A stretch of DNA of 63,997 nt, filler included, from Perkinsus olseni (Eukaryota): the NCBI GenBank assembly GCA_013115125.1. It is 5 parts of 5 records of this genome, joined end to end, with 100 filler letters (N's around TTAATTAATTAA, not from the genome) between each part and the next. Parts side by side here need not be neighbours in the genome. Positions count along the whole stretch, not along the records: positions 41,440 to 55,133 come from JABANN010000749.1; 4 more parts are not named here. One strand, 5' to 3'. A program made the position numbers and the translations under genes. Below the pieces are notes generated by a model. That model was given only the letters and a program-made list of their open reading frames with translations, was not told the origin of the DNA and did not search any database. Shown in pieces: positions 7,192-63,997 of this stretch (the first letter of the stretch is position 1; each line of letters starts with the position of its first letter).

Positions 7192-7534
7192 GTAACTTAC
7201 CTGGTTTACCTCGTTTTCAGAACACCCAACCGCCGGTACCGGTCGCTCTGAGACCGAGGCCGTGCGCAATGGGCTTGTCAGGCCTGTGCGAAGGTTGGCC
7301 AGCGGGCTGCTAGTAGCTGATATGCTACGGCCGGGTTCAACGGTAAATGAGTCACCATAGGAGCTGTTAGCTGAGACTGTCGTGCGCCACTGCACACCGA
7401 ATGATTAGCGACACTGATCCAACGGCGGGCGCCCGATTATTCTGCCAAATGAATTGCCCTTGACAATTTAATCAAGCAGTTACAGCCACTAGGAATGATG
7501 GACAGTCACTCACAGTAACTCACCTTCGGCTCTG

Positions 7535-7621
7535 TCAGAGGTGCCTCGAGGGCTCCCAGACACTAACAGCTCAGAGTCGCTCTGAACCGTTAGTGTCCGG
7601 GCGCCCTCGAGGCACCTCTGA
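7535..7621 (-). other. 87-nt near-perfect foldback hairpin
   Basis: 42-nt arms with 4 differences and a 3-nt loop. Confidence 0.85.
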
Positions 7622-8007
7622 GACTCTCAGACTGAGAGCTGAGCGTTCTGCCATGCATAAGGCAACTGTGGACATCGTTGTGGTGCAGCACCAGTGATGA
7701 CCACTGGTGCTACACAAAACGCGCAGCACAACGCGTTATTGGCTCACATAGTGGTTCAACAGAGGCTCAGCAAATTAATAACGGCAACACAAAGCAGGTC
7801 TTGTTCCGTAACATCCACAACCACAATGAACAACACTAAAAACTTTTTTGATGCGCAAGGTGCTGGTTAATGATAGTAATGACGAGTCCTTGACCATAAA
7901 CAGGTTGATGATGATCCGATATAGCCACTGGTTGCCGAGTTCCACTATTCGTTCACATGCGCTTGGTGAAGCACCCGGGGCCACTCACCTCCATTCGATA
8001 GAGTTTA

Positions 8008-13829: not shown

Positions 13830-14242
13830 CCACCAGAGCTGCGAGCACGGGCGTGTATGTCGCTCTTCTTGCCAGTGGCTCTACACTAGTACCACTGTCA
13901 TTGAGCGAGGCGGATAAACTCGATCTAGCTACGAATAGCTGCACTTTATACTCTGGGCGGGACTTGAACCCGCAACCTTTGGAATAGAAGTCCAACGCTC
14001 TATCCGATTGAGCCACCAGAGCTGTTTAGATTACCTTGTATATTCCTTTCTGTGCGAATGGCTCTCAACACTACTACCACATGGCATGTGGCGAGGCGGA
14101 TGAACTTGGCTACAGCTACGAATAGCTGCATCTCCTGCTCTGGGCGGGACTCGACATTACCGTGCGTGTAGCGCCGCGTTTTACCTCGATCAAGCAACGA
14201 TAGTTACATCTGTTACTCTGGTCAGGACTTGATGCCGCGACT
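13830..14242 (-). repeat. Edge of a tandem tRNA-Arg(TCT) array (~185-bp unit) with decaying copies
   Basis: tRNA 5' end at 13830-13839, a full tRNA at 13949-14022, and 3'-end fragments at ~14137-14155 and 14214-14242. The two spacers are homologous. Confidence 0.8.
13949..14022 (-). tRNA. tRNA-Arg (anticodon TCT)
   Basis: GCTCTGG TG GCTC AATCGGATA GAGC G TTGGA CT-TCT-AT TCCAA AGGTT GCGGG TTCAAGT CCCGC CCAGAGT A; all four stems pair. Confidence 0.95.
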
Positions 14243-25033: not shown

Positions 25034-27542
25034 ATAGCGAGATTGTTGCTGAGAGTGATGATGCTGACGATTGTGAGATGATAATAAAAAAGAAGAAGAA
25101 TAGAAAAGATATATTAAAAGAGGTTGCGTAAAAAGAAAGAAGAGTAGAATTATCCCGAGCTTGCCGTATTTTGAGTTTAGTTAATCGATCTGCTTTATCT
25201 AAGTTGACAACGGGTTTATGAGTGTTGTGATTTGCTCAGTTGCATCAGACGTCGGAGCTGAATGACTGGAGCTCCGACCCAGTTCACTCGGTTGGGTCGG
25301 AGCTGAAGGGGGTTGTCACGGGGTTGTCACGGCCACAACGTGACGTCCTGACCACTAGACGATAGCGACTCGAATTTGAACGCCTGAAAGCGCGGCCCAC
25401 CACAGCGACTTCGATTTCACGATCGAACATCTCCTCATGCCAGCCATCCATTATCCCCTCTATTCCAACAACTCATCGTAATGGCTCGTGGCCGGAGAGC
25501 CGCTGGTATCAGCGAAACTCAGAAGCGAGCTCTCGCCAAGTTTTTCGTGGGGCTGTTCGGAGCGGCTCTTATCGTCACCGAGTGCGCTTTTGTGATTGGA
25601 GTACTGCAGGTAGGCCGCTACAACAATCCCTGCATGCGCCATTGATAAACCCTATCGTCGTTCTCAGAAGCTGATGCGGTCAGATGCTGTCTGACCGACT
25701 GATAAGGGACCCCTCCGCCCCCGGACCTCCGCAACCTATCATGCCCGCCGTGGCTAGATTCCGCTTTGATAATGATTTGAGTTCATCACGAATGAGTAGC
25801 AAAGAACGGTAGCTGATTCGATATCAAGGCGGCAGCTAAGGCCAGTACCGTTGGGATCTTTAGCTAGAGTGTTTAGACGTGAAGCTGTTTGCTCATGACT
25901 CGATGGGAATAAGCAACACTCAATGAGGCCGCCCTCGCATATCCATAGGTCGGTCGATTCTGGATGATACGAATGAGCATAGATTTGGATTTGTGGCAGA
26001 AAAAGTACGGTGAAGTTGACCGTCGAAATTTCGTTTGCTTCTCTACTCTTGATAAGCGTCGCTTACACTTCGTAGGTGGGTCCTCCTCACGAGTCGCGTG
26101 GGAAACAACATAGCGAAGGAATTCTGTATGCTTGCATATGCTAAGGCAAGCATTTTCCGCGTCGGGACAATTTTCTTCTTCGCCTGTGCAACTTTCTTCT
26201 CGCGCACCTCACTTGCTACTCTTACTCGTTTTTCTCCTAACTGAGCCAAATTGGCTCAGCCAATCTTAATGCTGTATTCCAGCTCAGTTGCTGCCACGGG
26301 TTGCCCTAATATTCTATGCCTCGCCCGGGAAGACCTCCTGGCAAATGGGCCGATCGTAAGAAATCTTGCTCTCGCACTCTCGATAGAGTCATAAGCCGGG
26401 GCAACTATATTCTCAACGAGGTGGAGGTGCACATATTGAAGCATCTCCCTCCTGATTTACAGCGTGATATCGCGCGCAGGTGGATCCGCTTGCTCACTCT
26501 ACATCCTGACGACGGCGGCATTAATTTCGCCGAGGGTACCAGATTGGGGCTCGCCACCCGTAGAGCCGATCTGGCTCGTGTTCGGAAGGAGGCTGCGAAG
26601 ATGGGATCGTATTTCTTGCGATGGTGCGAGACGAACTTAATAATGTGCCGTTCGACAGTCCCCAGGAGGCCTCGGAACGCCAGTGCTCAGTCGCGCTCCT
26701 CTCCGGTCCGCGACCGTGGGAGTTCTCCGGGCTCTCAACCAGCCGAGTCTCCGGTACCACTACCACCTGTAGAGGATCCCGACCATAAGGGAGGAGAGTT
26801 GGCTCTCTTGTTACCTTCCCGGTCTTCGCCAGCGCAAGAGGTAGCTGGAGGCAGCAAGGGGTTCGTCCCACATCTGGAGGAACTGCGCTCCGCAGCTCGT
26901 TCGCGTCCTGCGATGGCCCTTTTTCCTTAGGTGCTACACCCGGAGCAGACTAAAGACGTGGTGGTTGGGCCAGCGCCGCGTTTCCTTGGTCTGGGAAGAC
27001 ATAGGGTAGATTTATATGCTGCGCAGTCTCTGCTTTCGCGGCGATATCTTCAGCTCTCTTCTTTATTCTCGGAGACCGAGTCCGCCTCGGATGCTGACAC
27101 CGTCTCTTCTGATATTTCTTCCTGCGGAAGTCGTGGCTTACGTGGACAGGATTCCAACCAGAGCCCGTCATGCTGGAAGGTTCGGTTCGCTGCATCTCTC
27201 GCCTCCATGATAACTCGCTGATTCAGCTCCGATCCCCAGTTCACTCGATTCCGCCTTCCGACTCCGGTGAGCTCTCGGAGCTCAGAAGCATCAGGTCAGT
27301 GCGCAGCGGCGCCGAGTCGAGCCAGAAACGGCATGAGGTGAGCCAAACGTGGGGCGCCGTGGTATTGTCTCGTTGTCCGTCTGGTTCTAATTGGGCAGTA
27401 CTCCGGCTACGTGATCGGACGAGGAGTAGTGAGTTATTGGGGGTCTTTCAGATGTGCTCGATCTGGAAGGACTCAGATAGTGAGAGTGGCCTGCCGGAGA
27501 TCATTTGTGACCCTATACCTCGCGAATTGTGATTCCACCACG

Positions 27543-30337: not shown

Positions 30338-31569
30338 ATGTCGGCCCTGGCACGTGACGGTCCGGCCTCCCTTGAGCCGTCCAAGCCCAGCGGTCCCCTC
30401 GCAGCCATGCCTACCAGTTTTTGTACTTGCGATAGAGCGGCTGGCGAAAAGTGTACATTTTGTTGGGCGTGGGAACCCAGTGAAGCTGGCAGCAGCATGC
30501 CTAGCGTGTGGTCGCAGGTGAGCAGTCGAGCATCATCTGCTTCTCCTGTGATCAGTCTCTGTAGGCCACTTCGAGATTGACGAGCGGTGCCTTGTCGAGT
30601 GGGGTGTATTCTAAGATATCCCTCTCCAGTGGAGTTACTATATCGGGCAACTGGCTGCAGGGTCAGCGTATACACTATGTCAAACCTGATTGTATCCCGT
30701 CAAAGGGCGGAGCGACTGTGGTAGGCTCTCGGAACCATTCAATTCAGGGATGCAGTGTAAAAAATCTATGTCGAGTTGAACCGACGAGCTTTCTGTTCCT
30801 TCCGGGCATCATTGCCTCACTTGTCAACCGCGCTTTTCTATTGTGTGGTTCAGGTTGTGGGGGTCAAGAAAGAGATACCGCAGGACATGTGGAACGCGTT
30901 GGAGATTGTTTTCCGGCGGCATGACCGTAGACCCACCACTCGCAACAGTGAGCTCAGTGAATGCAGCGGCTAGTCTCACGATGGTTGCTCAGGCCCGCAG
31001 CTTGGCACGGCTCGGCCACCGGACAGTCCACAAGCGATCCCGGCCGGATTTGTGAAAACCTTTAAACCTGAGGGGATAAGGAAAGGTGCTACTTCCGAGA
31101 AAATTGGTCGATTGGCGTAACTCGTTTGGGTCAGGGAAAAAGTTGGCTGTGAAAATCAGAGGAGATTTTCCGCCCGGAGACTACGACGTGTCGGTGTGCT
31201 TCGCGGGCCGCATGCTACACGGCACGCTGCCCATCGAAGTGGTGGAGAGGAAGGAGCTCAATGATCGGGATAACGAATCTGGTAAGTCCGCCGATGATGG
31301 CGCTGTCGCCGCGAGACCACTGTCCGCTCGGTCAGGCACGAAGCCCAGGGCGGACGCGTCATCGTCGAGCTCTCATCACTCCACACCGGGGATGCCGCCA
31401 GCGCTGGCCTCTCTTCTCGGTAAGCCAGGTTCGAATCAGGAGAGGGATCAAGTTTGGTTTTGTAGGCACGACCAATAGCATTCCCGAGGGCGGTCAGCTG
31501 GAGAATCCGCTGATGAGAGCGCTGGGAGGATCCGGGCTGCCGCCGGCTGCCACGGACGAGTCGAAGTGA
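30338..31569 (+). CDS. Multi-exon protein with the same Cys-rich motif (paralog B; 5' end uncertain)
   Basis: PTSFCTCDRAAGEKCTFCWAWEPSEAGSSMP at 30410-30502. A later exon PPGDYDVSVCF is homologous to GHYDVRLWC in paralog A; ends LPPAATDESK*. Confidence 0.55.
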
Positions 31570-41439: not shown

Positions 41440-42078
41440 TGTGCGCTGAGGCACGTCTGGGCAACGTGACCTAAAGTTGCGACGAGCAAAGTTGCCGAAT
41501 TGTATCATGCCCCTTCCAAACGTCCCTGGTGTTCACCAGACTGAATCGAGTTTCAAGATTCTCCGCCTTCCCGAGTTGAATTGGACCTCAAAGGCCCCCT
41601 AATCTCCAGAAAAGGCATCAGTCTATTGTTGAACACCCCCATCCCGAAAGACTACCGTCAACACGCCGAGCGCCAAGATCGACACGTGACGAGTAGCAAG
41701 AGAACATAACGCTACCGCTACACGACAGCCTCGTAGAACTCAGCTTTCTTGCATTTTCCGCTATTACAGAGCACACGATAATGAGCATAGAAAGAGATGC
41801 CATGAAGGTTGACCCTACTGCAGTTCCACGGCAGATCTCGCGTTGAGGAATGCACGAGGTAAGCCAAGGTCGCAAGATTTTTCTAGCTTTTAGTTGTCAT
41901 CATCATCTTCTAGAACTGCTCAGTGTGTTTCCTTTGAGGACTCAGTCGCTTGAGGGGCTCGTCGGCGAAGCAGCAACTTGCTCACCACTTCTTCGAGTCG
42001 AGGTGGGAATCTTAGGTCGACTTTGGTAAGATACAAATTGAGTCAACTCCCTGCTCACAGCCTCTTTAATCGATCAAC

Positions 42079-43589
42079 ATGGCTGACGTCTCTTTCGGCG
42101 TTGGTATTCTCTGTACCCTTCTCGCCGCCTTTTTCTACGGTATCCAATACGTGCCCTGTAAACAATACACCACCTTCGACGGTGCCGTCTTCCAATGGTT
42201 CATGTGCAGCGGTATTCTCTGGGGCGGCATCGTTCTTCAACTCATCCTGATGCTCGCTTTCGACTGGCCCGGTCCGCAGGTCATCCTCTACGGCGTCCTC
42301 TCCGGCATGCTCTGGGGCTCGGCGAATTTCCTGGTAATTCCTCTGGTCAGGATCTGCGGGCTGGCCTTGGGCTTTTCCCTATACCACATCATCAACTTAT
42401 CCTGGGGGTACTGTCTCAGTCGTTTCGGCCTCTTCGGGATGGACCAAGACGTCGGTCGGATACCCGTCCTTAGAGACGTTGGTGTCTTCGTGCTCCTAGC
42501 CTCCTTCGTTATGCTGTTCTGGGTTGAACCAGAGGAGGCGAAGGCCACCACCGCTCCCCTGAAGACCAAAGAAAGACCGTCGCAGAGCGTTCGTCACAAG
42601 GCTACGGCGCCGACCCAGTCCGATGAAACCTCTCCCATGGGCCAGGAGAATGATGACGACGTTGAAGTCGTTAAGAGCCCAACAGCAGGACAGCCGTCGA
42701 GGAAATATCTCTTTGGTCTGAGTCGCGTGCACGCCATTAAACTAGCAGGTAAATCGCCACTTAAATCTCTCCATTCCTCATTGCCGGGTCATTCAGGTAT
42801 CGCCTTAGCCATCGCCGCGGGAGTGCTGACTGCCATGAATGGATGGCCGTATGCTCTGTGGGCTCAGACCCAACAAGGGAAGGACATGATGGCGGTAGTA
42901 CACGGGAAGAGGTTGGGGGGCGCGGATACCAAATTTTGGAACTCTAATCGTTACTTCTAATTTCGCTTGTTAACTCGAACCGAAATTCTACCCTCGCGAT
43001 TCTAATCGTTCCAAATACCAAATTTCGCCCGAATCATTTGCATCTCGAATTAGCACTGTTCGCGCTATCTACACCCATTGCCACCATATTCTGTTCACCA
43101 GTGACCCCACGTCATGCGTCTCTGCAGGTGCAATTTGTATTCTCCCAAACCATTGGTATCTACGCCGTCTCCAGTATCTGGTACTGGCTCTCATCGACCA
43201 TCCGACAATTCGCTTTTAAAAAGCGTACCAATCACTCAGTTATTCGTCCAGCCTTCATTGCCGGTAGTGCCGTCTGTGGGATAGAACCTCTGCGGGATGT
43301 GATACAGCGGGTTTCAGGTCTCTTCTGGGTCATCGGTGATGTCAACATGCTTTACGGAATCGATGGTATCGGCTACGCGGCAGCTTACACTTTAGACGCT
43401 GTCGGACCGGTCATGGTCGCTAGTGTCCTCAGCCTTTTGTGGTTCAAGGAGATCAAGGAAACAAGGTGAATAAAATACCGTCGCCGGGGTTCGAACCAGA
43501 GACCTCTATTTCTCAGGCAGCGTCTATGGTTCACCGGTTCATTCGTCACTCAAGTCGCAGGTTGTATAATGGTAGCCGTAGGCGCCTAA
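42079..43589 (+). CDS. TMEM144: TMEM144-like (DMT superfamily) membrane protein, 5 exons
   Basis: FYGIQYVPCKQYTTFDGAVFQWFMCSGI, GMLWGSAN..GLALG..W..SRFGLFG and GPVMVASVLSLLWFKEIK match the TMEM144 pattern. Introns include 43264-43317 and 43466-43516. Confidence 0.85.
43268..43292 (-). pseudogene. tRNA 3'-end fragment (Lys-like) at the 5' end of TMEM144 intron 3
   Basis: Minus strand GGTTCTATCCCACAGACGGCA resembles a T-loop plus the CCCAC AGACGGC-N end of tRNA-Lys(TTT). Confidence 0.5.
43472..43507 (-). pseudogene. tRNA 3' half with T4 terminator inside TMEM144 intron 4
   Basis: AGAGGTC TCTGG TTCGAAC CCCGG CGACGGT A TTTT. Confidence 0.75.
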
Positions 43590-43957
43590 GAGTGCATCTA
43601 CTGCACCCAATACATTTTCCAGTCGAGTATCATTTAACAAAGGTGTGGTATGAAAAAATCCACACGCCTGCGCAGAAAATCATCCTAGGTATCTTGTAGA
43701 CTTGTAGTAGTAAAATATCTTTATTCCGTCAGTGTCACCCAGAGAAGCTTTCGCTGCCGTCCCGAATCCTTCGACGATTGCTCCTCTGACGTCTTGTGTT
43801 ACGCTATTTATCGACTACCAGCCAGCTTTGTTGTCCCCCTCCTACGAGGAGAAGACCACACGACTTTGCGGCTGTTTACGTTTTCCGACTCTTCGGTGGT
43901 TGGGTTGACGATCGCTGTTAATGGACTGCAAGAAGGAGAGAATAGCTTTTCATTAGC

Positions 43958-45151
43958 ATGTCGGACGGCGTGGAGGAGGACAGGGAGATCACACGCGATA
44001 TCTACGCCCTTTTAGCGGACAGCAGGGCCGAGCTATTCGATGACACAGTCGAAAGGTGAGCTCCTAATGGGTTCGAGTGACTGTAACAATGACTCTCTAA
44101 CTCGTGGAAGTAGCTGAGCTATGGAGACATAAGGGAGCAACTGTAGAGGAGAGTTAGGGCACCCAGCGTAGGGCGACGACCAACAGCGATTAGCTACGGA
44201 TCCTATGCTGCACATAAATGTCCGCATAATACCGTAACAAACTCCCTCTCTCGGTGCAATCAGTTCTCGGAGCGATCGTCTCGTCGGTGGTCAGTCGTCT
44301 CTCCGCCGCTCTGGCCCGTCTGCTGGCGAGGTTGCGTCAGAACAGCGGTGATCAGTGGATCGGGAATCGAATTGTAAAGGAGGTCCTGCTAGAAAATGGT
44401 AGGTCCTGGGATTCGAACCTGCGTCCAATATCCTCGACCATCAGGTACCGATCTCTTAATTAGAGTCATGAAGCGCTTCCCGGACCTCGCTGAACTGGCT
44501 GGCGAATGCATCGCCGCGGCAACCTCAGAAAATGTCATCTGCGGTTCCGGGGCGCCAACAACCGTCACTTTCGGCACTCCACCTCACGACGTTCAATTTC
44601 ACATGCAAACCGCCGACTACTACGGCGCTGGTCTCGGCTATAAAATATGGCCCGCCGCGATCGCGCTGGCCCGAGCAATCTATCAACATGATGTATCCCT
44701 CGGAGACCATCCGAAGGTTGTAGAGATCGGTGCAGGAGTCGGGCTAGCGGGCATTGCTGCGGCTAAATTCGGCGAAGCTTCTTCCGTCTGCTTCACGGAC
44801 AGGATGGCCGGGTCGTTGGAAGTCGCCATGAGAAACGCCAAGAGGAACTGCCTCAGCGGCAGATTTAGTAGTAAAGTCGTGGACTGGCGTGACGCTGATG
44901 GCCTGCCTGATGACGCTGATGTGATGCTCGGCGCGGATGTCATTTACGAGGAGGCACACGCCGAGCTGATCATGCAGCTGTTGAGGAACTTCCACGGCAA
45001 GAAGGCAGTACTAGCACTCATGCCACAGAGGCCAGGGTATAGGGAATTCATCTCGAAATTGAGGAATCTCAAGAGTGTGCAAGTTGCCAAGATGTCCGTG
45101 TCTACTCCGATAGGAGAATGTTCAATATTGGAGATCTCGGTGATTGACTGA
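43958..45151 (+). CDS. SAM-dependent methyltransferase, Methyltransf_16/METTL21-like; 5' exons tentative
   Basis: GYKIWPAAIALA, VVEIGAGVGLAGI, FTD, VDW and LGADVIY motifs. The intron 44399-44444 joins ..EVLLENG to TDLLIRVMK in frame. Confidence 0.85.
44399..44427 (-). pseudogene. tRNA 3'-end-like fragment at the 5' end of the methyltransferase intron
   Basis: Minus strand GGACGCAGG TTCGAAT CCCAGGACCTAC has a perfect B-box GGTTCGAATCC. Confidence 0.55.
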
Positions 45152-45641
45152 AGTCTCCATTCAATAATCTTCGCTGTGCGCGTAGGAAGATACGACTTTA
45201 TAAGATCGTTTTACCATCTCAAAGTGTCTCTGCCGTTTTCATTTTGATGGGTTAACTGTCGAGCTCATCAATCGTTCAAGAATTGTCGCTGCACACGCCG
45301 GCCAATATATCATGGAAAATTTACCGCAGAAATAAAACGGAAAGAGAATACGATGCACCGATGGCCAACACTCTCATGTGGAATTGGATCATTTCGTGCG
45401 TGTGTCTGAATAGCATCCAAAGCGTATATGAAGCCAACACGCACACCAAAGGGATCCACTTTGTCTCAGCACCTTGGGAAAATTAATGAAACTGCTCGAC
45501 ACGGTTTACCTCGTGACTTATGCGCAAAAGCCATCTCTTGACGAAAAATGCCGGGCCTGGAGTTGCACCTGAGGCTGCACTGGCTATCTCGAGTTGACGG
45601 CTTCGCTTCGCCACGAAGGCCTAGCGATCAACCCAACGCAC

Positions 45642-47131
45642 TCACGAGACGTTCCTTTCCTCACTGACACCGCGACTGCCGTAATAACTCAACACTCCTT
45701 CCTCCGGTGTTTGCACTAATTCTTTCATTCGCTACATTCACATCATCACGCTGCGGGGTCCTTCACTTGTGGGGAGGCCGCTGTCATACTCGACGAGGCC
45801 GCTCCTTTAATACCACTCCCTGCGCAAATCACAGCTGCACAGGGACACCCGAGGAGATAATCCAAACCCCACCTTTATAGCTCTCCTGCATGGCACCTTC
45901 ACCTCTACTCGTCGGCGGGGCTCGAGCGCTCTTCCCCAAGGCATTCTCCAACTCTTGATAAGCAGACCGCTGTATGTTTTGGGTGTTTTGAAGCCGCTAA
46001 AGAGAAGCAGCCGCTGAAAAATTCCAACGCCGTCCTCCGATCGTCACTTGGATGAGTTCCATCTCCTCCTTCTCCATGGCCGACACCAACGCCTCCGTGT
46101 GGGCTCGTAGCGTCTCCTCCTGCTGCACTTTATTTTCATAGTCCATTCGGCAGCTCTCCAGCTTTCGGAACTGATACCACAACATACGCAACTCCCAAGC
46201 CCGTCGGCCCCCCTCATCACCTTCTCTTGTTCGATCCTCTTCTTAGCATTGTCCCTCTGGCTTCGTATCGCCGTCGCCCTGCTCGTGTTGGCACCCCTGA
46301 AGCACGGCCTCCCACCACCCCTCTGCCCCTCCCTCCCACATGTCCCTCATCCACTTCTCCTGTCTCTGCCTTTCAAGCTTCATCTGCTCCTCCCGCCCCT
46401 CACGGACAAGATGCCGCTTCGATTCGAGCATCGCAGATCTCGTCGCCTGACAACACGCCATCGGAACCCCACAGCAGCGTCTTCTCGTCCCACCTCTCGC
46501 TGCTGCTTGGCCTTGTCCTTCATAAACGCATTCCTCGCCTGGCTGGCCCGAGCTGCCTCCCACTTCTTTTTGTGCATCTGACGACGCCCCAACGGTGCAT
46601 GACCGACCAGCGGACGCACTAGTGACGGTCACCTGCTCTTTGGCGATGACTTTTGCTTCATTCTCAGCTCGCAGTGTGTTGATTTGCTCAGCCCTGAAGC
46701 ATATCTTAGGTCGGCCCGTGAAAGATACCGAATAGGTCCGGCTTACTTTCTACGAGTCTCCTGTATCTTTTTCCAAGCCTTCTCCTCCTCTTGCTTCAGT
46801 AGTGCTATGCGGTTGGCAAGCAGCTGGGCGTCGAGTTCGGATCTCTTTCGAGATTCCTTCGCGACCTGATAACTCACTCGTGCAGCCCACTTTGCCCTAC
46901 TGGGAAGACCGACTTACCGTCAGAGTCGCGCGCATCTGGCTCACTTCGCCTTGCAGCTGCGACGTCGCCGTACTGGTATTGTGCAAATGCTGACCTGAGA
47001 ACAGCTCTGACCTGTTTTGAGTTCTGCATGGTTCGACCTAAGATACACCTACCACCTCCAGCTGATCCATGCAGAACGCTCTGGGACTGCTCTTGGGCGC
47101 TGTTATCGACCGAGACAGGCTGGTTCTCCAT
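45642..47131 (-). CDS. Multi-exon coiled-coil hypothetical protein
   Basis: Spliced exons AQLLANRIALLKQEEEKAWKKIQETRR..ALVSAMEKEEMELIQRLQNTQNIQRSAYQELENAL. The 3' end is uncertain. Confidence 0.65.
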
Positions 47132-48103
47132 TAGACAATGCAAAACTGCCAACCACCGCCGACGCGTTGCGATGATTCCCGCAAACTTCAAAGCATCCTT
47201 CTCTCGACAACCCACGACGAGCTCATGTGATGCCAGAGGTGACCGCTGTCCGGGGCTCCTCTACCCTCTGCCTCATCGTCATCACCTCGTCGCCTTCGAT
47301 AGAATGCCGACGCTTCCTGCGAATACCAAATCTTCACCGCCACTCGAATGGCACCTACATGCTCATCCGCCTTGCCGCGCTACAAAGAGCCGCAGCCGAC
47401 ACGCAGAGGTCGCCGTCGAGCGAGTCGGAGTCTAGGTCCGCACACCACACTAGCCGACGGGGTAGACGATAGCCTGAAGCGTTCGATGAAGGGTTACTCT
47501 GGAGACGAATACTCACCATGAGGAGTACAGAATGGCTCCGGTCCGAGAGTGAGGTGCCCCTTCCTCGGGAAACACTCCCTGAGCGATCGCTCGGAGTTGC
47601 AGCGCCTGATCGAGGCAGTAGGGATCGTCAAGGGGACGACATGGGTCTTCCTATCCGACCTCAACCGTCTCGAGGAGGTGGTGTCCGATGACAAGCTTGA
47701 AAGGCGGCCTGAGGTTTGGGAAATACGGCTGGCCCGTCGCTGTTGATGGACCGACGGAAAATTCCGAGAGGAGTCCGTCCTCTCTGCAGAATAGTCGGAG
47801 TCTCCTTCAGCTCTTCTCGCCGCGCTATGCGCTGCTCGAAATCTTCAACTAGATGACGGAAGTGAACAGCGTCGGAGGACAAGACATGCTGTTTAACCAT
47901 AAAGAGGAAACTATCGGTGAAGAATCAACGAGATTGTACCTCCTGTAGCGTTCGAACCGGCGACCTGTCGCATCTAGGACGAACACCATGTCCAGCTGAG
48001 CCACGCCGCTCACGGCACACACTGAAAACCTCCCAATGAAGCGACGGCCATTGACAAAATCGGAGCATCCCTCTTCATAGAAAAGGAGTAACATAACCAC
48101 CAA

Positions 48104-50049
48104 TCACTGAATTCTCTCGATGACCACACTCGTCGCCCCTCCTCCGCCATTACATATTGTCGCACAACCGACACTGTAATCATTCTCACCCAAAATTCTC
48201 GTCAAAGTCCCCACCAGACGGGCTCCTGAGGCTCCAATGGGGTGCCCGAGAGCCACCGCCCCTCCGTCCACGTTAACCCTCGACGGATCTAGGTCCAATA
48301 ATTTCATATTGGCGATGGCCACCGACGAGAAGGCCTCGTTAATCTCCCAGACGTCAACGTCCCTGAAAACAACAAGGCGTCTAAACTGAGATAATCGCAA
48401 CTAGTTTACAAGTGAGACCATCCTGTTTGGAAAAACATCTCTTCACAACGGAAACCAACTCAAGCAAGACCGCCAGCTCTCCACTGTGGAGGACGCATGC
48501 ATGCCGCCCCCGCCGCCGCCGCCGCCGCGCGGATGAGGCGGAATGGCTCCCCCATGATGCTCACTTCGGCGTCATCCCTGCCTTCTGCAGTGCCACCCTC
48601 GCTGCCCCGGCCGGTGAGATCGAATAATCTATGGGGTCCTGCTCGAAATCTGCCCAGGAGATGATCCTGATCAGCCAGGCCACTTCAACAATCGATCAGC
48701 CGGGCGGGCGCTTCTATCACCGAGCCAGCGGGGTCAAGCCTTGTTCCCGAGAGAATTCCTCACTGACGACGACGAGTGCCGCTGCACCATCGTTGAGCTT
48801 GGAGGCGTTGGCGGCAGTAATGGTGCCATCTTTGATGAAGGCTGGTCGGACCGCTGCCACCCGCTCGATCTTCAAGTTCGTGAACCTGAATTCGACAAGT
48901 TGTTTCCAACAACCACGAGAGGTGAGACTCACTCCTCATCACTGTAAAAAATTTTAGGTTCGCCACCCTTGACTGTTGGGGGGACTTCAACTGGGAACGC
49001 CTAGGGAACGCTAACGCGTTGCGGATCTCGGGACGTGCGCAGCAACATTCGAGTTGGACTGGAAAGTGATGCACCGAACCTCCGAAACTTGCCTCATTCT
49101 TCATCTTTCCTTTACTCCACGCCGCGGCCGCCCTCTGATAGGACTGGATGGCGTAGTCATCCTAACGCACGAAGCAGCATTCAACTCGTAGCGGCGGGCC
49201 AAGACAGCACTTGCTCCTCTCGAGTAATGCCAAACTCTTTAACGGTCTTCTCAGCACACTTGCCCATGTGGATGTCGTTATAGACATCCCAGAGCCCATC
49301 TCTCAAGACTAGATCTACCAGCTGGCCATGGCCGTATCTAAAACACTCATCGCCCGATTAGTTCAGCTGGATAGAATGTCTGCCTACGGAGCAGATGGTC
49401 GTAGGTTCGAATCCTGCATCGGGTACTTACTTATACCCGCCACTCCTAGCCTCCGTCAATGCATGTGGCGTATTGCTCATCGACTCCATCCCTCCAGCAA
49501 CAATCTGCCATCATTCTATACCACCATCCACTGAGGAGTCACCTACCACATCGGCCTCCCCCACAGCGATGGAAGTAGCCGCGATAGAGACCGCCCTCAT
49601 ACCACTGCTGCACACTTTATTAACACTCATCACAATCGTGGACGAGGGAAGCTTGGCCGCCAAAGCTGCCTGACGTGCCGGGGCCTGACATAGATAGACA
49701 AACCGCAGTCGCACAGAACGAACCCACGACCACTGGCAGCGTAGGGGTGAAGATTAACCACTCGCCCATACTACCTGTCCACAAGCCGCTGAGAGTACAT
49801 GCCCCATGATAACCTGATCCACCTCTCCACCATCGACCTTCGCTTGAGCCAATGCTCGCGTGATGGCCTGAGGCGATCAAACATATCCCCTCAATCGCCT
49901 GTTAATGCTTTCCCAAAACCACCCACATGAGCTGCTAGTTGAGGCGCCTTGAACGACGACAACCTCCCCAAAAAAGAACCGATCGGAGTTCGAGCATAGC
50001 CGACTATCACCGCCGACCGAGGCAGGGAGAGGGGACGTATGATAGGCAT
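48104..50049 (-). CDS. Acetyl-CoA C-acetyltransferase (thiolase), multi-exon
   Basis: [73 protein letters not shown] and CNGGGG. Includes a GC-AG intron at 49001-49092. Confidence 0.95.
49352..49425 (+). tRNA. tRNA-Arg (anticodon ACG), antisense within a thiolase intron
   Basis: GCCCGAT TA GTTC AGCTGGATA GAAT G TCTGC CT-ACG-GA GCAGA TGGTC GTAGG TTCGAAT CCTGC ATCGGGT A; all stems pair. Confidence 0.95.
49704..49774 (-). pseudogene. Degenerate full-length tRNA (Ser-like) forming a thiolase intron
   Basis: GTAGTATGGGCGAGTGGTTAA...GGTCGTGGGTTCG..GCGACTGCG retains an A-box, a partial B-box and GTAGT/ACTGC acceptor pairing. The anticodon arm has decayed. Confidence 0.55.
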
Positions 50050-50579
50050 GAAAAATGAAGCCCCCAGCCACTAGACCCGCGCAAGTTCGATCCCCAGGTC
50101 CGCAACCCAACGCCATTGACCAGCATTAAGCCGCTGACACGCATCTGCCCGAACGACCTCCACAACTAACCAGCCTGCTTGCACAGAATTGACGGTATTC
50201 AACCACAGGAAGAGGCGCTTGCAGCGGCGGAGGCGGCAATATCCCCACTAACAGTAGGAGTATGATAAATGTGATAATAATTGAGCAATGACAACGTGAT
50301 TTTGAGAAGTGCTATTATTACTACCGATAGAGCATCAATCAACATCAACAACGGTATGGCATCAACCGCTATTACAGGTTTACTGACATCACCACCTTCA
50401 TTAGAGATGCATCAAGGAGATACAAAATGGTAATTCGCAATGACGACGACCATCGTGCACAGCCGGATGAATAGGTAGAAGAACAAACTCAGAAATTATT
50501 GATAAGTATCTAAGGTGGAACCACGAAAGATACAGAACAGCTCAAGACTGGAATGCAGTATTCGTAGAGCCTGGCTTAC

Positions 50580-51590
50580 TCATTGCACTGTTCCTTCAAC
50601 TGTCGGTGTTCGCCCTTCAGGAGGGAACGGGGCGAAGGGTATCGGCAAGGCTTCTTCCTCCAGCACTGGCGCCTACGCAGGAACAGCACCCCAACCTGAT
50701 GGCACCGCAGAGTATCCAAACCCGGGCATACGTTAGGCATGGATCCTCCTCCTCCGGTCGGCCCTCCACCAGCCCCAGCGCTCATCATCGGAGTTGATAG
50801 TTCCCTTTGACGTGCCGTAGAATTGAAGAGCGAGAACCCCTTATACTGAGAGCCAGCTCTCCCGCCTCAACGCTATGCCCTCCCTATCCTAACCTTAATA
50901 GCGTAGTAGAGTGTGAGTGCTCCTGTAGATATCATAAACATGCCCGACAGGACACAGAAGAACGACCAGAACCTGACCAGGAGTGGGTCGGAGCGATCGC
51001 AGACTCCCTAACGGCCTACCCAGAGTTGACCTTGACTCCGTCGTCTTCTCCCAGTAACGCCATCAGCATCCTGGCCTCGCCCTCTTCACGACTGCCCTCT
51101 GTTACCGATCGAACCGACTTGTACGTATAATTGCCACTACACAGCATTCCTATTACCTGAAAAAGGGGGGAAACCTTTAGCGGAGCGAAGCTCTTCGAAT
51201 GTTATTACTATGTAGAAGACAGCACGACCGATGAATGAAGTCATGAAGGGTAGAACAGCCCGTATAACTTTATGAGCCTTCGAGTCTCGGGGCCTGACAA
51301 CAAACGCTGACTCTCCATCCAAAGGTCCCCGGATCGATCCCTGCAGCCTGCATTTTCATACCACAACTCCGCAATCATCCCGGCAACACCCAAGCCACCA
51401 AACAAGGCAAGGTCAGCCAAATTACGTAATAACCTCCACAACGAATACTGAGGACAGAAAATGTACCTGAGAAAATACAAATACCCCTCCCGGGGTTCGA
51501 ACCCGGGACCTCCTACGATAACGAATGCACCACCATCAATAAGCATGAGCCGCTCCCACTGAGGCGAAGGATGTGCTCGATGCTAGCCAT
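50580..51590 (-). CDS. COPI-associated/TVP15-like small membrane protein, 6 exons
   Basis: Spliced MASIEHILRL..GMIAELW..VLPFMTSFIGRAVFYIVIGML matches the COPI-associated pattern (FxxxxxGRxxFY). Confidence 0.7.
51317..51356 (+). pseudogene. tRNA 3' half with T4, antisense in COPI-gene intron 2
   Basis: ATCCAAAGGTC CCCGG ATCGATC CCTGC AGCCTGC A TTTT. Confidence 0.6.
51482..51516 (-). pseudogene. tRNA 3' half forming COPI-gene intron 1 (sense)
   Basis: GTAGGAGGTC CCGGG TTCGAAC CCCGG GAGGGGT A followed by TTTGTATTTT; the T-arm is perfect. Confidence 0.8.
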
Positions 51591-51767
51591 AATTACAACA
51601 AACTCGATGAAAGCAGTAGAACATTTTCCCCTAAACGCAAGCCTCGGAGGAAACGATAAAATCACTCCATCGTTCTCTCCACTAATAACAAGCCCGCATA
51701 CGAAGGCTTTCGCAGAGGCCCGAAAATGACTGGTAAAAATCTGAAAGGACCGCTGATGCAATGATGG

Positions 51768-52645
51768 TCAGAGGAATCCTGACGCGCACCCGGAAGATTT
51801 TCTCCCTGGATGTCTGCGAATTGAATCTTTATACGTTTCTCCTTTGCAAAGTAGCCAACAATGGAGGCCGACGTTTGGGACCTGACAGGTTCGATCGTGA
51901 TGGCCTGGGTTGGATCTGCGATATGGCACTACTACCGCTGATACTATCCCGACGATGGATGCCAATACTAAGGCTAACGACGCCCAAGGGAGTCTCCGGC
52001 TGATGGCGAAAAACAAGTACCTGACACAACAAACCGTTCTCAAGCACCGTCCTCCAACCCGAAGGTCTCCGGATCGAATCCTTGCTGTGATATCTCGAAG
52101 CCTCCTTATTACACCACGACGATCCCTCCGGCAGCCGCTGTCCCGATCCACATTTGACACATCCGAGGCAATGCAGAGCGTGATAATAAAAACAATATGA
52201 TACTGACCGCGACAGCACAACAGACCTGAGACAACCATCACTACCACCGACGTCACTCCCCACCAACCACTATCCATGCAACCGGTATGGGAACTATCGT
52301 CCTCCCTCGGTCATCATCAGTAGCGAAGGCCACGCAGGCACAGACCCCCACTCCTACGCTGAGGAGCATGTAAATGCTGCATACCACAACAAACAGTATC
52401 TGATGGCAGAGCAGATGGTCTCGGATCTATCACCCACCGTCTTACGAAGGCTCGTCTGTTCCGCAGTCCGATGCAGTTGTTCACCACCGCACAGTGATGA
52501 TCGAACTCTCGAATACAGTAGCCGCACTCGGAGCCTGTCTTGAAGGAGCCTCAGGGGTAGGACGAGGAGAGAGTACCCTTACAGTGACTCCATCCATCCA
52601 GGCGATAAATCTTGCAAGTGCTGCAGAAACGGACGTCATGACCAT
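51768..52645 (-). CDS. Hypothetical multi-pass membrane protein, multi-exon
   Basis: Splicing 52021-52112 gives [53 protein letters not shown]. The start is tentative. Confidence 0.55.
52056..52092 (+). pseudogene. Initiator tRNA-Met-like 3' half, antisense in an intron
   Basis: AACCCGAAGGTC TCCGG ATCGAAT CCTTG CTGTGAT A has the GGATCGAA T-loop and TGATA end typical of eukaryotic initiator tRNAs. Confidence 0.7.
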
Positions 52646-53209
52646 TGGAAAGGGCTTTGGCCGTATCCAGGTCTAGACGGGTGTTCACATAGAGGGCGTA
52701 ACTGATGGTGATTTGGGGAAGAGATGGTATGGCAACGATGAATCACCTGCCGTCATTGAAGCTCTGCCCCCTCACGTCCCGTATCTCGCGCTGATACCTG
52801 GCAAAACGCAAGATACGATCCCGAAAATCCAAGCCACGGAGTTGGGCATCGTGCCACGAAGTGGCAGCCGAGCTGCTGGCCTACGCTTCATCGGGGCCTT
52901 GACCTGTCCTCGACAACACTTCCAATGGCGGCACGGCGCCGGGGTCCGAGAGTGCTGTATCAAGGAAAAGTACTACTGTAGAGACGAAGAGGGTCTGAAG
53001 GGACGATGGTGGAGGGAAGGGGATCGACGAGGGTTCACCAGGCTGCCTGCCTCCAGGCCCGGATGAGGCTCTGGGAGATCATAGAAGAGGGAGAGGAGGA
53101 CTAGGCCCAGGTGGAGGAGGAGGCCCGACCCTGTTAGAAGGAGGAGCGAGGGGGCTGAAAATGACATCACTAAATTAACGCATACAGGTGGCGACGGAGC
53201 CGTGCCCAA

Positions 53210-53312
53210 GATACTCTACGAGTCGACCTCAAGATACACTTCACGAGTCGACCTCAAGATACACTTCACGAGTCGACCTCAAGATACACTTCACGAGTCG
53301 ACCTCAAGATAC
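53210..53312. repeat. 25-bp tandem repeat, ~4 copies
   Basis: ACGAGTCGACCTCAAGATACACTTC starts at 53218, 53243, 53268 and 53293. Confidence 0.92.
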
Positions 53313-54150
53313 TCCTAGGACCGATCTTAAGGTGGCGTATAAATCGACGTCGAAGTGCCCTCGTACAGCTCTTCCTTCGGGGTGCATACATCCAGGGCGT
53401 CAGTGACTGGAGCATATCTTGGGCATGAAGGTGACCGAAGGTAATCATTCAACTCGCAGCAGCCATTGTATCGCCACCACCGTCGTCCCCAATTGCTCCC
53501 CTCGAACGTTTTTCCCCACAAATATAATCGTTCATCATTATATAATCGTTCATAACCGTGCGTGCGGCGGACCGCGAACGGGAATCGATGCCCGTGCCCC
53601 ACCGTTTCTTCTGGCGCTCATCCGAGGTACCCGTACTCGAGCGTAGCAAAACTGTATATCCTCTTCGTTGTATGCATGTTCATCAGCGATAAACGCGAAC
53701 GCTCGAAACTTCGATTTCCATGATCCACGTGAACAATGTGTCGGGCACGGAAACAGAAACAATTACATCGATCACCCCGAGCAACGGAGTAAGGGACCGT
53801 GCGAGGCCACTAGTAGTCCTTGTGGAGCATATCTTAACTCGGAGCTTGACCTTCACTGGGGAGAGCACGCTTCGACCAAAGATATGCCTTGGTGAAAATT
53901 GATAATTGGTGGAATGATCACATCGTGGCGGCTGTGAGTGAAAGTCTATCGCAACGCAAAACAACCTTGCTAGTGAATTGAGTTAACACCACACTGGATA
54001 TGATAGCAAGGGAATGCCTTAGAAAGCCTGATTTAACTTGATTGTTGGGGGTAAGCCGCCCTGGACTGAACTCAGTGCCATTAAGGTCTCAAGAAAAAGG
54101 CTAACTTGAATAAGTATAGGTCGGGTCTAGGATAATATCTAATATTCTGA

Positions 54151-55133
54151 CTATTCAACTGATCTTCCTAAGCTAATACAGCGGCTGCACGCATACTCAG
54201 GTTCCTTGCTGGAGCGAGGTGGCGCGCGGAGCTTGTTGTCTACACGTAGACAACACAGAAAAATCAGGGACTCTCTCTCCATAGACACCACCCGTGATGC
54301 CATGAACACGGTAGACCTCGCGTCCATAGCTGCCACCGCCCATGGGGCTAGGCGTGAACACGAGTACCTCCGCACCGACCTTGGGTGGTCCACGTCTAGG
54401 GACGAACCTTCTTGCCGAAGAAGTAGTTGTAGAAGCCTTAATAGCGTCAGCGACGAGGCGATCCAAGTAGTCACCGTCCTCCCGCCTTTGACGAGCTTGC
54501 TCGGCGTCGGCTGGGGTAGGGGCTACAGAACCTGGGCTCTGAAGAGCATTCTCCACCGGGAAACGTCGTGGCCTCGCGAAGAATATCTCGTGCGGTGAAA
54601 GATCCACCCCATCCAAAGGCTTGGCATTGAGACGAGCGATCACCCGATGGATCTGCGTCGACCACGCACGCTTGGAAGCCAGCTGACGAGTGATGAACTT
54701 GATGGCGGACACCGACCGTTCTACGAGACCATTCGAGAAGGCCGCATAGGGGGGTAGTTGCTGATGAACCACCCCTTGGGAGGCCATGAATTCCATAAAC
54801 TTTCTCCCGCGGAAACAGGGTCCACGATCCGATCTCAGCCGGCCCATTGGGCCAAAGATGCTGATGAAGGTTGACAGGGCGCCGATGACCGAAGAGGAGG
54901 AGCTACTGCGCAGTGGAGCCACTAAGGCAAAGCGGCTGAAGTGATCCACCAGGAATAACGCAGAGGTATAAGTGCCCTTCCTGTCAGGACCCATCTCCGC
55001 GAGGTCAGCCGACACTATGTCCCAGCATCCATGGGCACCCTGTGAGAGGTTCCGACCACTGTCGCGGAGAGAGTAATATCGCTTGTTGTGGGCGAACTGA
55101 CATTGATCACAAGAACGGCAGACCTCAATGGCA
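54151..55133 (-). mobile_element. Ty3/Gypsy-like integrase (3' end of an LTR retrotransposon, cut by the contig end)
   Basis: CxxC Zn-finger end, SADL, LVDHFSRF, SDRG, PYAAFSNGLVER and SPHEIFF form a DDE integrase core. Confidence 0.88.
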
Positions 55134-63165: not shown

Positions 63166-63238
63166 AACATACTGGCATAGTGGTATGCGCCTCTGCTTCC
63201 ACGCGCACGGTCGCTGGTTCGAGCACAAGAGGCCGAAT
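63166..63238 (+). pseudogene. tRNA-like A/B-box element (pseudo-tRNA or SINE head)
   Basis: A-box TGGCATAGTGGT and B-box GGTCGCTGGTTCGAG at tRNA-like spacing; the stems do not pair. Confidence 0.45.
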
Positions 63239-63997
63239 TGACGTCAGGCAGTTAGACACCGGAGTCCCAGCGCCACCTGAGCCGGCGTGAGAATTTTTAC
63301 ACGCCAGGCGCGGGGCCGCTCTGCGACTGGTGTGCAAACGAGATTTCAGTGTACGGATCGTTCAATCTAACTGGTGAACAATATATGCTCGTGAGAGCTC
63401 ATCGTTGACGGCTCGACTCAATGCACTGCGGTTCTTCCTGGCATGCGGAGCAAACCTTGTTTTTCTCCTCACTCTTGAAAAAATGCCCTTCCTCCACCCG
63501 GTTTGTTCCCTTTTTGTGATTGTGCTCCCTACGATCGAACATCTGGTACTTGAGTGGTCACACCTAGCGTATTTATGAGCATAATACCTGCCTTTTAACG
63601 TCCTTGCCCACGATTCAGAGCGCTTCTTAACTCATCTTCTCTACTCATCAGAGGAATCTTTGCGCCAAACTGTATTTATAGTCCGATCATCTCGCCGCAA
63701 AGTTTGATAGAAATACTATGTTCGTATACCATTTTCTGCCTTCTCGGTCTATTCATCTTCCATCATGTACTATCTGCGGTTCTGTCTAGCTCTATCGGCT
63801 TCCGCTAGCGCGGGACGTATATAGGGCTATGGGCTTACGCCCGTAAAGCCTGGGAAGAAGTTTCGAAGTCACCCGAGACGGCCGAGATTTCGTTCCTCGC
63901 ATTTCTAACCTTCGACTCAGAAATCCGATTTCACTCCTTATTTTGGCGTTCGAAGAAAAAATGTTTAATGTATATTTTGGGTGCGCGTGTCGCACGG

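What the first reader, a model, noticed from the sequence alone, without database searches (positions are those of the whole stretch)
43264..52112. Spliceosomal introns built from tRNA genes: at least 8 cases in 5 genes of one contig
Seen: introns placed independently by restoring protein frames are largely tRNA sequence. They are TMEM144 43264-43317 and 43466-43516; methyltransferase 44399-44444; thiolase 49338-49430 and 49685-49774; COPI gene 51294-51361 and 51467-51516; and membrane gene 52021-52112. They derive from different tRNAs (Arg, Ser-like, iMet-like, Lys-like, others), occur in both orientations, and range from intact through degenerate to 3' half. In the six antisense cases the tRNA 3' end lies 0-20 nt after the GT donor. 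Several keep a genomic T-run and lack CCA. Established: tRNA genes can lie in long introns, and introner transposons create introns. Inference: here tRNA gene copies themselves become short introns and then shrink towards the ~50-nt norm, a tRNA-driven intron-gain route I do not recognise as described.
Basis: partly seen in the sequence, partly recalled or inferred. Interest (0 to 1): 0.95.

Follow-up and report, generated by a model that had tools for sequence, protein, structure and literature searches.

The report
Short introns made of tRNA genes
In a shellfish parasite's genome, about a quarter of the short introns in five neighbouring genes are tRNA genes or their worn-down remains, which hints that copied tRNA genes can seed new introns.

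Summary
The window is Perkinsus olseni DNA: exon translations are 100% identical to deposited P. olseni proteins.

All eight claimed introns are real GT-AG introns. Five appear as joints in all 4 of 4 laid RNA-type runs. Three rest on spliced models that match deposited proteins.

Seven of the eight carry tRNA-derived sequence beyond chance. One is an intact antisense tRNA-Arg(ACG) that fills 74 of 93 intron bases. Six are fragments, mostly 3' halves, and three are followed directly by a T-run. Intron 43264-43317 is not supported.

Of the 26 introns in the five genes, 7 beat every shuffle against an E. coli-only tRNA profile. None of the 31 exon segments comes close.

Rfam does not call the fragments.

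One tRNA-like intron sits at the same position in P. marinus, so it is not recent.

Introns 51294-51361 and 52021-52112, in neighbouring genes, share the same tRNA core and the acceptor-side tail.

I favour intron creation by DNA-level insertion of tRNA-gene-sized units (0.45) over insertion into older introns (0.3). No whole genome or sister-species DNA was available to decide. No paper reporting this was found.

The parts
49338..49430 (-). Thiolase (Erg10) intron 4, 93 nt. It reads GTAAG, then the antisense intact tRNA-Arg(ACG), then 14 nt ending TTTTAG.
   Evidence: It is the only frame-keeping GT..AG solution between the flanking exons. The full model is collinear with P0017.
49352..49425 (+). 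Intact tRNA-Arg(ACG) gene with a perfect B box. No T4 run follows it within about 40 nt.
   Evidence: ARAGORN; Rfam 61.8 bits; own covariance model 73.7 bits.
49685..49774 (-). Thiolase intron 2, 90 nt. It holds a sense-oriented, degenerate tRNA of class-II look. The donor GT falls on what reads as tRNA bases 1-2, and a T-rich trailer precedes the AG.
   Evidence: Profile score 21.1, reached by 0 of 1000 shuffles. Junction. The profile aligns only columns 39-58; the full-length reading is by eye.
43466..43516 (+). TMEM144 intron 4, 51 nt. It holds an antisense tRNA 3' half (profile columns 44-74) with TTTTATT directly after the discriminator base.
   Evidence: RNA joint in 4 of 4 runs. nhmmer E 0.026. 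Profile score 22.6, reached by 0 of 1000 shuffles. Alignment.
44399..44444 (+). Lysine-methyltransferase intron 2, 46 nt. It holds an antisense tRNA 3' half with an exact B box; its best E. coli match is tRNA-Lys. The intron is shared with P. marinus.
   Evidence: Spliced model equals P0136. nhmmer E 0.008. 0 of 1000 shuffles reach its score. Pairwise match. P. marinus read-through ORF P0139.
51294..51361 (-). It holds an antisense tRNA, profile columns 29-74, with a GGATCGA T loop and TTTT after the discriminator base.
   Evidence: RNA joint in 4 of 4 runs. Profile score 22.4, reached by 0 of 1000 shuffles. Alignment.
51467..51516 (-). Intron 1 of the same gene, 50 nt. It holds a sense tRNA 3' half with a perfect 5-bp T stem and an exact B box, then TTTGTATTTT and CTCAG.
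   Evidence: RNA joint in 4 of 4 runs. Profile score 24.6, reached by 0 of 1000 shuffles. Own covariance model 21.1 bits over 51482-51572.
52021..52112 (-). DHHC palmitoyltransferase intron, 92 nt. It holds an antisense tRNA, profile columns 23-64 or further, of the same type as 51294-51361. The two share the tail GTTTGTTGT(GT)CAG.
   Evidence: RNA joint in 4 of 4 runs. Profile score 24.5, reached by 0 of 1000 shuffles. Pair alignment. DHHC domain.
43264..43317 (+). TMEM144 intron 3, 54 nt. The intron is real, but its tRNA origin is not supported.
   Evidence: RNA joint. 86 of 1000 shuffles reach its score. The same intron position exists in P. marinus.
47951..48010 (-). tRNA fragment (model positions 1-60) outside the annotated introns, just beyond the thiolase mRNA 3' end.
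   Evidence: nhmmer E 0.011. Own covariance model 17.9 bits. Profile score 33.5.

Best explanation
These are short spliceosomal introns of Perkinsus olseni whose interior is a tRNA gene or the decayed remnant of one.

The copies came from tRNA genes at the DNA level. They carry the acceptor 3' end followed by a Pol III T-run, and they have no CCA and no poly(A).

I propose that a tRNA-gene-sized unit of about 90 nt (tRNA plus a few flanking bases) was inserted into coding sequence. It survived because it could be spliced out at once.

- Antisense orientation: the reverse complement of the 3' trailer supplies GT(A/G). The reverse complement of the 5' end and D arm supplies a CTRAY-like branch site (CTGAACTAATC in the intact copy). 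The reverse complement of the A/C-rich 5' flank supplies a G/T-rich tract plus AG.
- Sense orientation: the T-run serves as the pyrimidine tract before AG.

Internal deletions then trim the intron toward the local norm of about 50 nt, usually leaving the T arm and acceptor 3' strand. The intact tRNA-Arg(ACG) is probably still a working tRNA gene.

SHOWN: real introns, tRNA-gene origin, strong intron enrichment, and persistence since before the P. olseni / P. marinus split.
INFERRED: that insertion created the introns, which sequences act as splice signals, and the direction of size change.
For: ENRICHMENT.
- 7 of 26 introns score 21.1-52.0 against an E. coli-only tRNA profile, and 0 of 200 shuffles reach them. 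The other 19 score 8.7-15.8. The best of 31 exon segments (5455 nt) scores 15.3.
- Over the whole window, loci scoring >=21.8 are 7 in the 2027 nt of introns and 4 in the remaining ~62 kb. Five shuffled windows each gave about one such locus, with top scores 21.0-23.7.
- nhmmer gives 10 hits at E<1, against a mean of 0.83 in 40 shuffles. It gives 6 hits at E<0.05, against 0.025.
- The heptamer GGTTCGA/TCGAACC runs at 3.45 per kb in introns, 0.18 per kb in exons and 0.14 per kb in the rest of the window.

ANATOMY.
- A T4 run sits directly after the discriminator base in 3 copies: 43466, 51294 and 51467.
- Size: the intact copy leaves 5 + 14 nt of non-tRNA sequence in a 93-nt intron, while the shortest intron here is 42 nt. 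The three fullest copies are 90, 92 and 93 nt.
- Introns 51294-51361 and 52021-52112 lie in two unrelated neighbouring genes. They share the tRNA core, and their shared 9-mer GTTTGTTGT next to the acceptor is the longest 3'-end match among all 325 intron pairs. Their global alignment score is 51, against a shuffle maximum of 19 in 500.

CONTEXT. P. marinus is reported to hold hundreds of copies of single tRNA types (PMC3706591, sections 10 and 13 read).
Against: - No target-site duplication. The letters repeated at the two junctions number 2-3 for the tRNA introns and 0-6 for the others.
- The only case I could compare across species (44399-44444) is present, tRNA-like core included, in P. marinus. 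TMEM144 introns 1-3 are shared too. No gain event is therefore caught in the act.
- The curated Rfam model calls none of the fragments.
- MAFFT aligns only the core and the acceptor tail of the 51294 / 52021 pair. The donor-side homology depends on cheap gaps.
- All 7 cases lie within 9 kb. I found at most one unverified candidate elsewhere in the window (31420-31465).
- The sample is one 13.7-kb stretch. No whole genome was available.
Confidence: 0.45

Rival explanations
1. tRNA genes, which are hugely amplified in Perkinsus, landed in introns that already existed. Deletions then removed nearly all of the old intron sequence. The tRNA sequence is a passenger, and no intron was gained.
For: - tRNA fragments also lie outside introns in this window: 677-745, the 13949-14022 locus with partial duplicates, 25314-25369, 47951-48010 and 63174-63275.
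- The 44399 intron is old, being shared with P. marinus.
- No target-site duplication is seen.
Against: - Density in these short introns is about 50 times that of the rest of the window. Insertion into a 50-nt intron should usually break it.
- The intact copy leaves only 19 nt for all splice signals.
- None of the three fullest copies sits in an intron longer than 93 nt.
- The acceptor tail shared by 51294 and 52021.
Confidence: 0.3
2. The fragments are kept because they do something in place. Examples would be B-box (TFIIIC-type) sites or T-arm hairpins within genes, alongside one ordinary nested tRNA gene. How they originated would then be secondary.
For: - Exact B boxes persist in 4 introns.
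- In the truncated copies it is the 3' half with the B box that survives.
- The core is compatible at 15 of 16 specified positions with the P. marinus intron.
Against: Two other introns compared between the same species in the same way are as well conserved. They show 26 compatible against 7 incompatible positions, and 33 against 2; the tRNA-like intron shows 28 against 5. No extra constraint is therefore needed. Nothing here measures binding or function.
Confidence: 0.1
3. An already tRNA-bearing intron spread as RNA. The excised intron reverse-spliced into another transcript and was copied back into the genome.
For: 51294-51361 and 52021-52112 are similar, have the same orientation relative to their host genes, and lie in neighbouring genes on the same strand.
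Against: The similar pair 43466 / 51467 has opposite orientations relative to its host genes. The copies come from several tRNA types. Both points favour DNA-level events.
Confidence: 0.07
4. The resemblance to tRNA is chance or a composition artefact, apart from one nested tRNA gene.
For: Rfam reports only the intact tRNA. Three fragments (49685, 51294, 52021) fall below E 10 with my own covariance model.
Against: 0 of 1000 shuffles reach the score for each of the 7. No exon segment is comparable. The exact 11-mer B box occurs at 4 loci, all intronic. T-runs sit exactly at the predicted tRNA 3' ends.
Confidence: 0.03

Closest known systems
Introners / introner-like elements: transposon-derived introns of algae, fungi and dinoflagellates. 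Sources: PMC9860276 and PMC12130899 (passages read) and review PMC11282704 (passages read).
   Same: An intron-sized unit fills the whole intron. Related copies sit in unrelated genes. Copies decay toward ordinary short introns.
   Different: - Those elements are families of DNA transposons, retrotransposons, helitrons or cryptons with many near-identical copies and usually TIRs or TSDs.
- Here the units are copies of several different tRNA genes with Pol III signals. No TSD was seen and no transposase link is known.
- Only two look-alike pairs were seen in the one window.
- The main texts searched do not contain 'tRNA', 'SINE' or 'Perkins'.
tRNA genes nested in introns of protein genes, as in Caenorhabditis (PMC3342880, search listing and abstract only).
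   Same: An intact tRNA gene lies inside a host-gene intron, as tRNA-Arg(ACG) does in the thiolase gene.
   Different: By my recollection, nested tRNA genes occupy a small part of long introns. Here the gene takes 74 of 93 nt, and six further short introns are tRNA remnants.
tRNA-derived SINEs (general knowledge, recalled).
   Same: Pol III-promoter-bearing, tRNA-related sequence is dispersed into genes.
   Different: SINEs have a tRNA-like 5' head, an unrelated body and an A-rich or LINE-like tail, and they carry retroposition marks. These copies run to the true tRNA 3' end plus a T-run, and it is the 3' half that survives.
Amplified tRNA genes and tRNA-targeting Dada transposons of Perkinsus marinus (PMC3706591, sections 10 and 13 read).
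   Same: Same genus, with exceptional tRNA gene copy numbers: 349 tRNA-Leu-CTT and 116 tRNA-Gly-GGA copies are reported.
   Different: That paper is about transposons that insert into tRNA genes. In the passages I read, which were found by searching the text for 'intron', it says nothing about tRNA genes lying in or forming introns.

Membership tests
tRNA gene (Rfam RF00005) | Cloverleaf scoring at or above the gathering score of 29 bits. | tested here: met
   49352-49425 scores 61.8 bits. This holds for the intact copy only.
tRNA gene (Rfam RF00005) | The same score criterion, applied to the six fragmentary intron copies. | tested here: not met
   No RF00005 match at E<=10 in 9.4-kb, 0.84-kb or 1.2-kb searches. 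They are remnants, not tRNA genes.
tRNA gene (Pol III type 2) | B box GGTTCGANTCC, and a T-run terminator after the 3' end. | tested here: inconclusive
   The exact B box is present in 4 introns. A T4 run directly follows the discriminator base in 3 copies. The intact tRNA-Arg(ACG) has no T4 run within about 40 nt downstream, and neither does the free-standing tRNA-Arg(TCT).
Introner | The element coincides with a whole, spliced intron. | tested here: met
   RNA joints. tRNA ends lie 0-21 nt from the splice sites.
Introner | Many near-identical copies in unrelated genes. | tested here: inconclusive
   Within the window there is one pair of the same type with a shared tail (51294 / 52021) and one pair sharing the T arm and T-run (43466 / 51467). 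blastn found no further copies in the window. No genome was available for counting.
Introner | Terminal inverted repeats or target-site duplications. | tested here: not met
   Junction repeats of 2-3 letters, no more than in the other introns (column 'both'). TIRs were not specifically searched for.
Introner | Lineage-specific presence, showing recent gain. | tested here: not met
   The one testable case (44399-44444) is present in P. marinus. The other six could not be tested.
tRNA-derived SINE | tRNA-like head plus an unrelated body plus an A-rich or LINE-like tail. | tested here: not met
   Copies end at the acceptor 3' strand, the discriminator base and a T-run. No body and no A-tail are present.
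Nested tRNA gene in a long host intron | The intron is much longer than the tRNA gene. | tested here: not met
   A 93-nt intron holds a 74-nt tRNA.

The most novel reading that the evidence does not exclude
Perkinsus carries tRNA-gene-derived 'introners'. These would be Pol III gene copies of about 90 nt that are duplicated at the DNA level into nearby genes. They would be spliceable in either orientation because their terminator, 5' flank and D arm mimic splice signals. They would have supplied a sizeable share of the genus's short introns, linking its extreme tRNA-gene amplification to its intron richness.
Probability: 0.35. Interest if true: 0.85.

Novelty: new variant of a known kind. Interest (0 to 1): 0.72.

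Why it matters
How new spliceosomal introns arise is a long-standing question. The best-documented route is insertion of transposons ('introners').

If ordinary tRNA genes can become introns, that would add a new and very simple source. It needs no transposase. It also explains how an insertion can be spliceable from day one: Pol III signals doubling as splice signals.

It would also tie two oddities of Perkinsus together, namely hundreds of copies of single tRNA types and many short introns.

The question is directly testable with public Perkinsus genomes and RNA-seq.

Even under the rival reading, a quarter of the introns in five genes being tRNA remnants is an unreported feature of this parasite's genome.

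Tried and rejected
- WHOLE GENOME. None is held, so no genome-wide census was possible.
- Read laying. I re-sent the N-free stretch 41440-55133.
- NAIVE GENE MODEL. A longest-ORF dynamic-programming model gave a wrong thiolase. I replaced it with anchor-guided junction solving.
- HOME-MADE INTRON FINDER. I built one from codon usage plus splice PWMs to annotate the rest of the window. Its coding signal was too weak and its PWMs were over-fitted, so I did not use it for counts.
- RELAXED ARAGORN. It gave mostly noise: 14 calls at 85% threshold and 58 at 80%.
- B BOX WITH ONE MISMATCH. It gave 12 matches against 2-10 in shuffles, which is not informative.
- tRNA COPIES RUNNING INTO EXONS. My covariance model suggested this for 43476-43538 and 51482-51572. 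I rejected it for TMEM144 because that exon is conserved coding sequence in distant homologues. It remains unresolved for the first exon of the 228-aa protein gene.
- SELECTIVE CONSTRAINT ON THE T ARM ACROSS SPECIES. I considered this. I dropped it after two control introns proved equally conserved.
- END-TO-END HOMOLOGY OF 51294 AND 52021. I weakened this claim after MAFFT supported only the core and the acceptor tail.
- PFAM ON SPLICED PROTEINS. I used stored protein ids and single-exon references instead. The 'COPI' label of the 228-aa protein could not be checked because its exons are too short.
- EARLIER FINDINGS OF THIS SCAN. Nothing exists for this genome or sequence.
- LITERATURE. Searches for tRNA-derived introns found none.


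Full report
WHAT THE WINDOW IS

The DNA is eukaryotic and comes from Perkinsus olseni.
- A TMEM144 exon, a thiolase exon and a methyltransferase ORF translate to sequences 100%, 100% and 96% identical to deposited P. olseni proteins.
- RNA contigs carry the loose end CTTGGCTCA at mRNA 5' ends (42059, 51604, 53454). This fits the Perkinsus-type spliced leader, which has TCTT where dinoflagellates have TTTT (PMC3101222, passages read).
- No whole genome is held for the window.

ARE THE INTRONS REAL?

I laid contigs of four runs on 41440-55133. X13 is on record as RNA; X7, X10 and X17 are guessed to be RNA. Fifteen of 46 joints were displayed. All fifteen are GT..AG (or CT..AC on the minus strand) and are present in 4 of 4 runs.

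- 44399-44444: contig pieces stop at 44444 in three runs. The spliced model is identical to P0136 over 302 of 302 aa.
- The two thiolase introns: anchor-guided solving of every exon junction gave nine introns, one of them GC-AG. The resulting 405-aa protein is collinear with P0017, with 5 substitutions and no indel.
- P0017 matches both thiolase domains end to end.
- My TMEM144 model equals P0001.
- Pfam confirms TMEM144, a lysine methyltransferase, thiolase and a DHHC palmitoyltransferase.

In total I have 26 introns (2027 nt) and 31 exon segments (5455 nt) in five genes.

IS THE INTERIOR tRNA?

Results that do not support the fragments:
- ARAGORN and Rfam find two intact tRNAs in the window. 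They are tRNA-Arg(TCT) at 13949-14022 and tRNA-Arg(ACG) at 49352-49425. The latter lies antisense inside the 93-nt thiolase intron.
- Rfam reports none of the fragmentary cases, even in sub-windows of 0.8-1.2 kb at E<=10. This counts against calling them tRNAs by the curated standard.

Results from my own models, built from 27 distinct E. coli tRNAs fetched for the purpose:
- An HMM (which also included the two window tRNAs) gave 10 hits at E<1, against a mean of 0.83 in 40 dinucleotide shuffles. It gave 6 hits at E<0.05, against 0.025.
- A covariance model run with filters off found the two tRNAs. It also found a degenerate tRNA at 677-745 (31.9 bits), 51482-51572 (21.1 bits), 47867-48010 (17.9 bits), 43476-43538 (12.1 bits) and 44409-44419 (8.8 bits). 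It missed 49685, 51294 and 52021.
Intron 43264-43317 did not: 86 of 1000 shuffles reached it.
- Across all 26 introns the result is bimodal. Seven score 21.1-52.0 and nineteen score 8.7-15.8. The best exon segment scores 15.3.
- The exact B-box 11-mer occurs at four loci in 64 kb, all in these introns.
- The T-loop heptamer is about 20 times denser in introns than in exons or in the rest of the window.

ANATOMY

- Five copies are antisense to the host gene (43466, 44399, 49338, 51294, 52021). Two are sense (49685, 51467).
- The intact copy leaves only 5 nt on the donor side and 14 nt on the acceptor side of its 93-nt intron.
- Copies 43466, 44399 and 51467 keep only the part from the variable loop to the 3' end.
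- 51294 keeps profile columns 29-74. 52021 keeps columns 23-64 or further.
- A T4 run follows the discriminator base directly in 43466, 51294 and 51467.
- None shows an unambiguous encoded CCA. At 44399 the letters CCA-TTTT would run into the exon, which I read as chance.
- These features mark copies of tRNA genes, not of mature tRNAs and not of SINEs.
- The GGATCGA T loop of 51294 and 52021 matches what I recall as the hallmark (A54) of eukaryotic initiator tRNA.

RELATEDNESS AMONG COPIES

- Introns 51294-51361 and 52021-52112 lie in neighbouring, unrelated genes. They share the tRNA core and the longest acceptor-side match of all 325 intron pairs, GTTTGTTGT.
- A gap-tolerant global alignment gives 57 identical of 62 aligned positions. 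Its score is 51, against a shuffle maximum of 19 in 500.
- MAFFT supports the core and the acceptor tail but not the donor third.
- The shorter intron looks like the longer one with internal pieces missing.
- Introns 43466 and 51467 share the T arm and T-run but differ in the acceptor strand. They may come from different tRNA genes.

AGE

- P0139 is a 251-aa ORF that clusters with a named P. marinus protein. It reads through the orthologous methyltransferase intron.
- Its back-translation is compatible with the P. olseni core CTGGGATTCGAACCTGCG at 15 of 16 specified positions. The annotated P. marinus protein splices at the same place.
- This tRNA-like intron therefore predates the split of the two species.
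- Two control introns compared in the same way are equally conserved. I infer no special constraint.
- TMEM144 introns 1-3 are also shared. Intron 2 is 51 nt in P. marinus against 233 nt here.

WHERE ELSE?

tRNA fragments also lie outside annotated introns:
- 677-745;
- tandem partial copies beside tRNA-Arg(TCT) at about 14.1-14.2 kb;
- 25314-25369;
- 47951-48010;
- 63174-63275.

All seven intronic cases lie within 9 kb. The only further candidate, 31420-31465, is unverified.

READING

The tRNA-gene origin and the intron enrichment are solid. Whether insertion created the introns is not settled.

For creation:
- the 50-fold excess in short introns over the rest of the window;
- the 90-93 nt size of the three fullest copies;
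- the 19-nt non-tRNA remainder in the intact case;
- the shared acceptor tail of the 51294 / 52021 pair.

Against creation:
- no target-site duplications;
- no gain caught between species;
- the small, clustered sample.

I put creation at 0.45 and insertion into older introns at 0.30.

NOVELTY

Seven full-text searches and passages read in nine papers found no report of tRNA-gene-derived spliceosomal introns. They also found no report of the intronic location of Perkinsus tRNA genes. The papers are PMC3706591, PMC3101222, PMC11282704, PMC9860276, PMC7789003, PMC9550989, PMC12130899, the preprint 10.1101/2020.10.14.339549, and PMC3342880 (listing only).

Noticed in passing
window 42059, 51604, 53454: RNA contigs carry the same 9-letter loose end (CTTGGCTCA, or its reverse complement) at the 5' ends of three mRNAs. 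These look like spliced-leader trans-splice acceptor sites.
   Followed up: partly
window 13830-14240: The intact tRNA-Arg(TCT) at 13949-14022 is followed by two partial tandem copies of its 3' end plus flank, near 14117-14160 and 14205-14235. Neither this tRNA nor tRNA-Arg(ACG) has a T4 terminator close by.
   Followed up: partly
window 677-745 (-): A degenerate tRNA with a UGG-type anticodon loop. It scores 31.9 bits with my model and 21.7 bits in Rfam, below the cut-off. It lies in sequence that does not look coding.
   Followed up: partly
window 25314-25369 (-) and 63174-63275 (+): Further weak tRNA-like fragments in apparently noncoding DNA. The first is a 5' part with a GTG anticodon loop. 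The second is a T-arm-bearing piece with a TCC-type loop.
   Followed up: partly
window 42895-43127: TMEM144 intron 2 is 233 nt with internal repeats. The P. marinus orthologue reads through only 51 nt at the same position. This is an expansion here or a deletion there.
   Followed up: partly
window 49001-49092 and 48363-48564: The thiolase gene has a GC-AG intron (92 nt, with a weak T-arm-like GGAGGTTCGG near its start). It also has a 202-nt intron holding a (GCG/GCC)n run.
   Followed up: partly
window 31420-31465 (+): A possible 46-nt GT..AG intron containing GGTTCGAATC in a gene outside the RNA-covered stretch. Splicing it keeps one frame open, but this is unverified.
   Followed up: partly
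window 53779-55133: Contig depth in run X7 rises to 20,000-72,000, with odd back-joints near 54226-54286 and several base differences. It could be a very highly expressed or repeated sequence.
   Followed up: no
window 7532-7624 (-): A long, near-perfect hairpin that draws weak Rfam matches to unrelated hairpin families (E 0.17-0.33).
   Followed up: no
window 51517-51574 (-): The first coding exon of the 228-aa membrane-protein gene aligns, in my covariance model, as the 5' half of the tRNA whose 3' half is intron 51467-51516 (21.1 bits overall). It may be chance or exonised tRNA sequence.
   Followed up: partly
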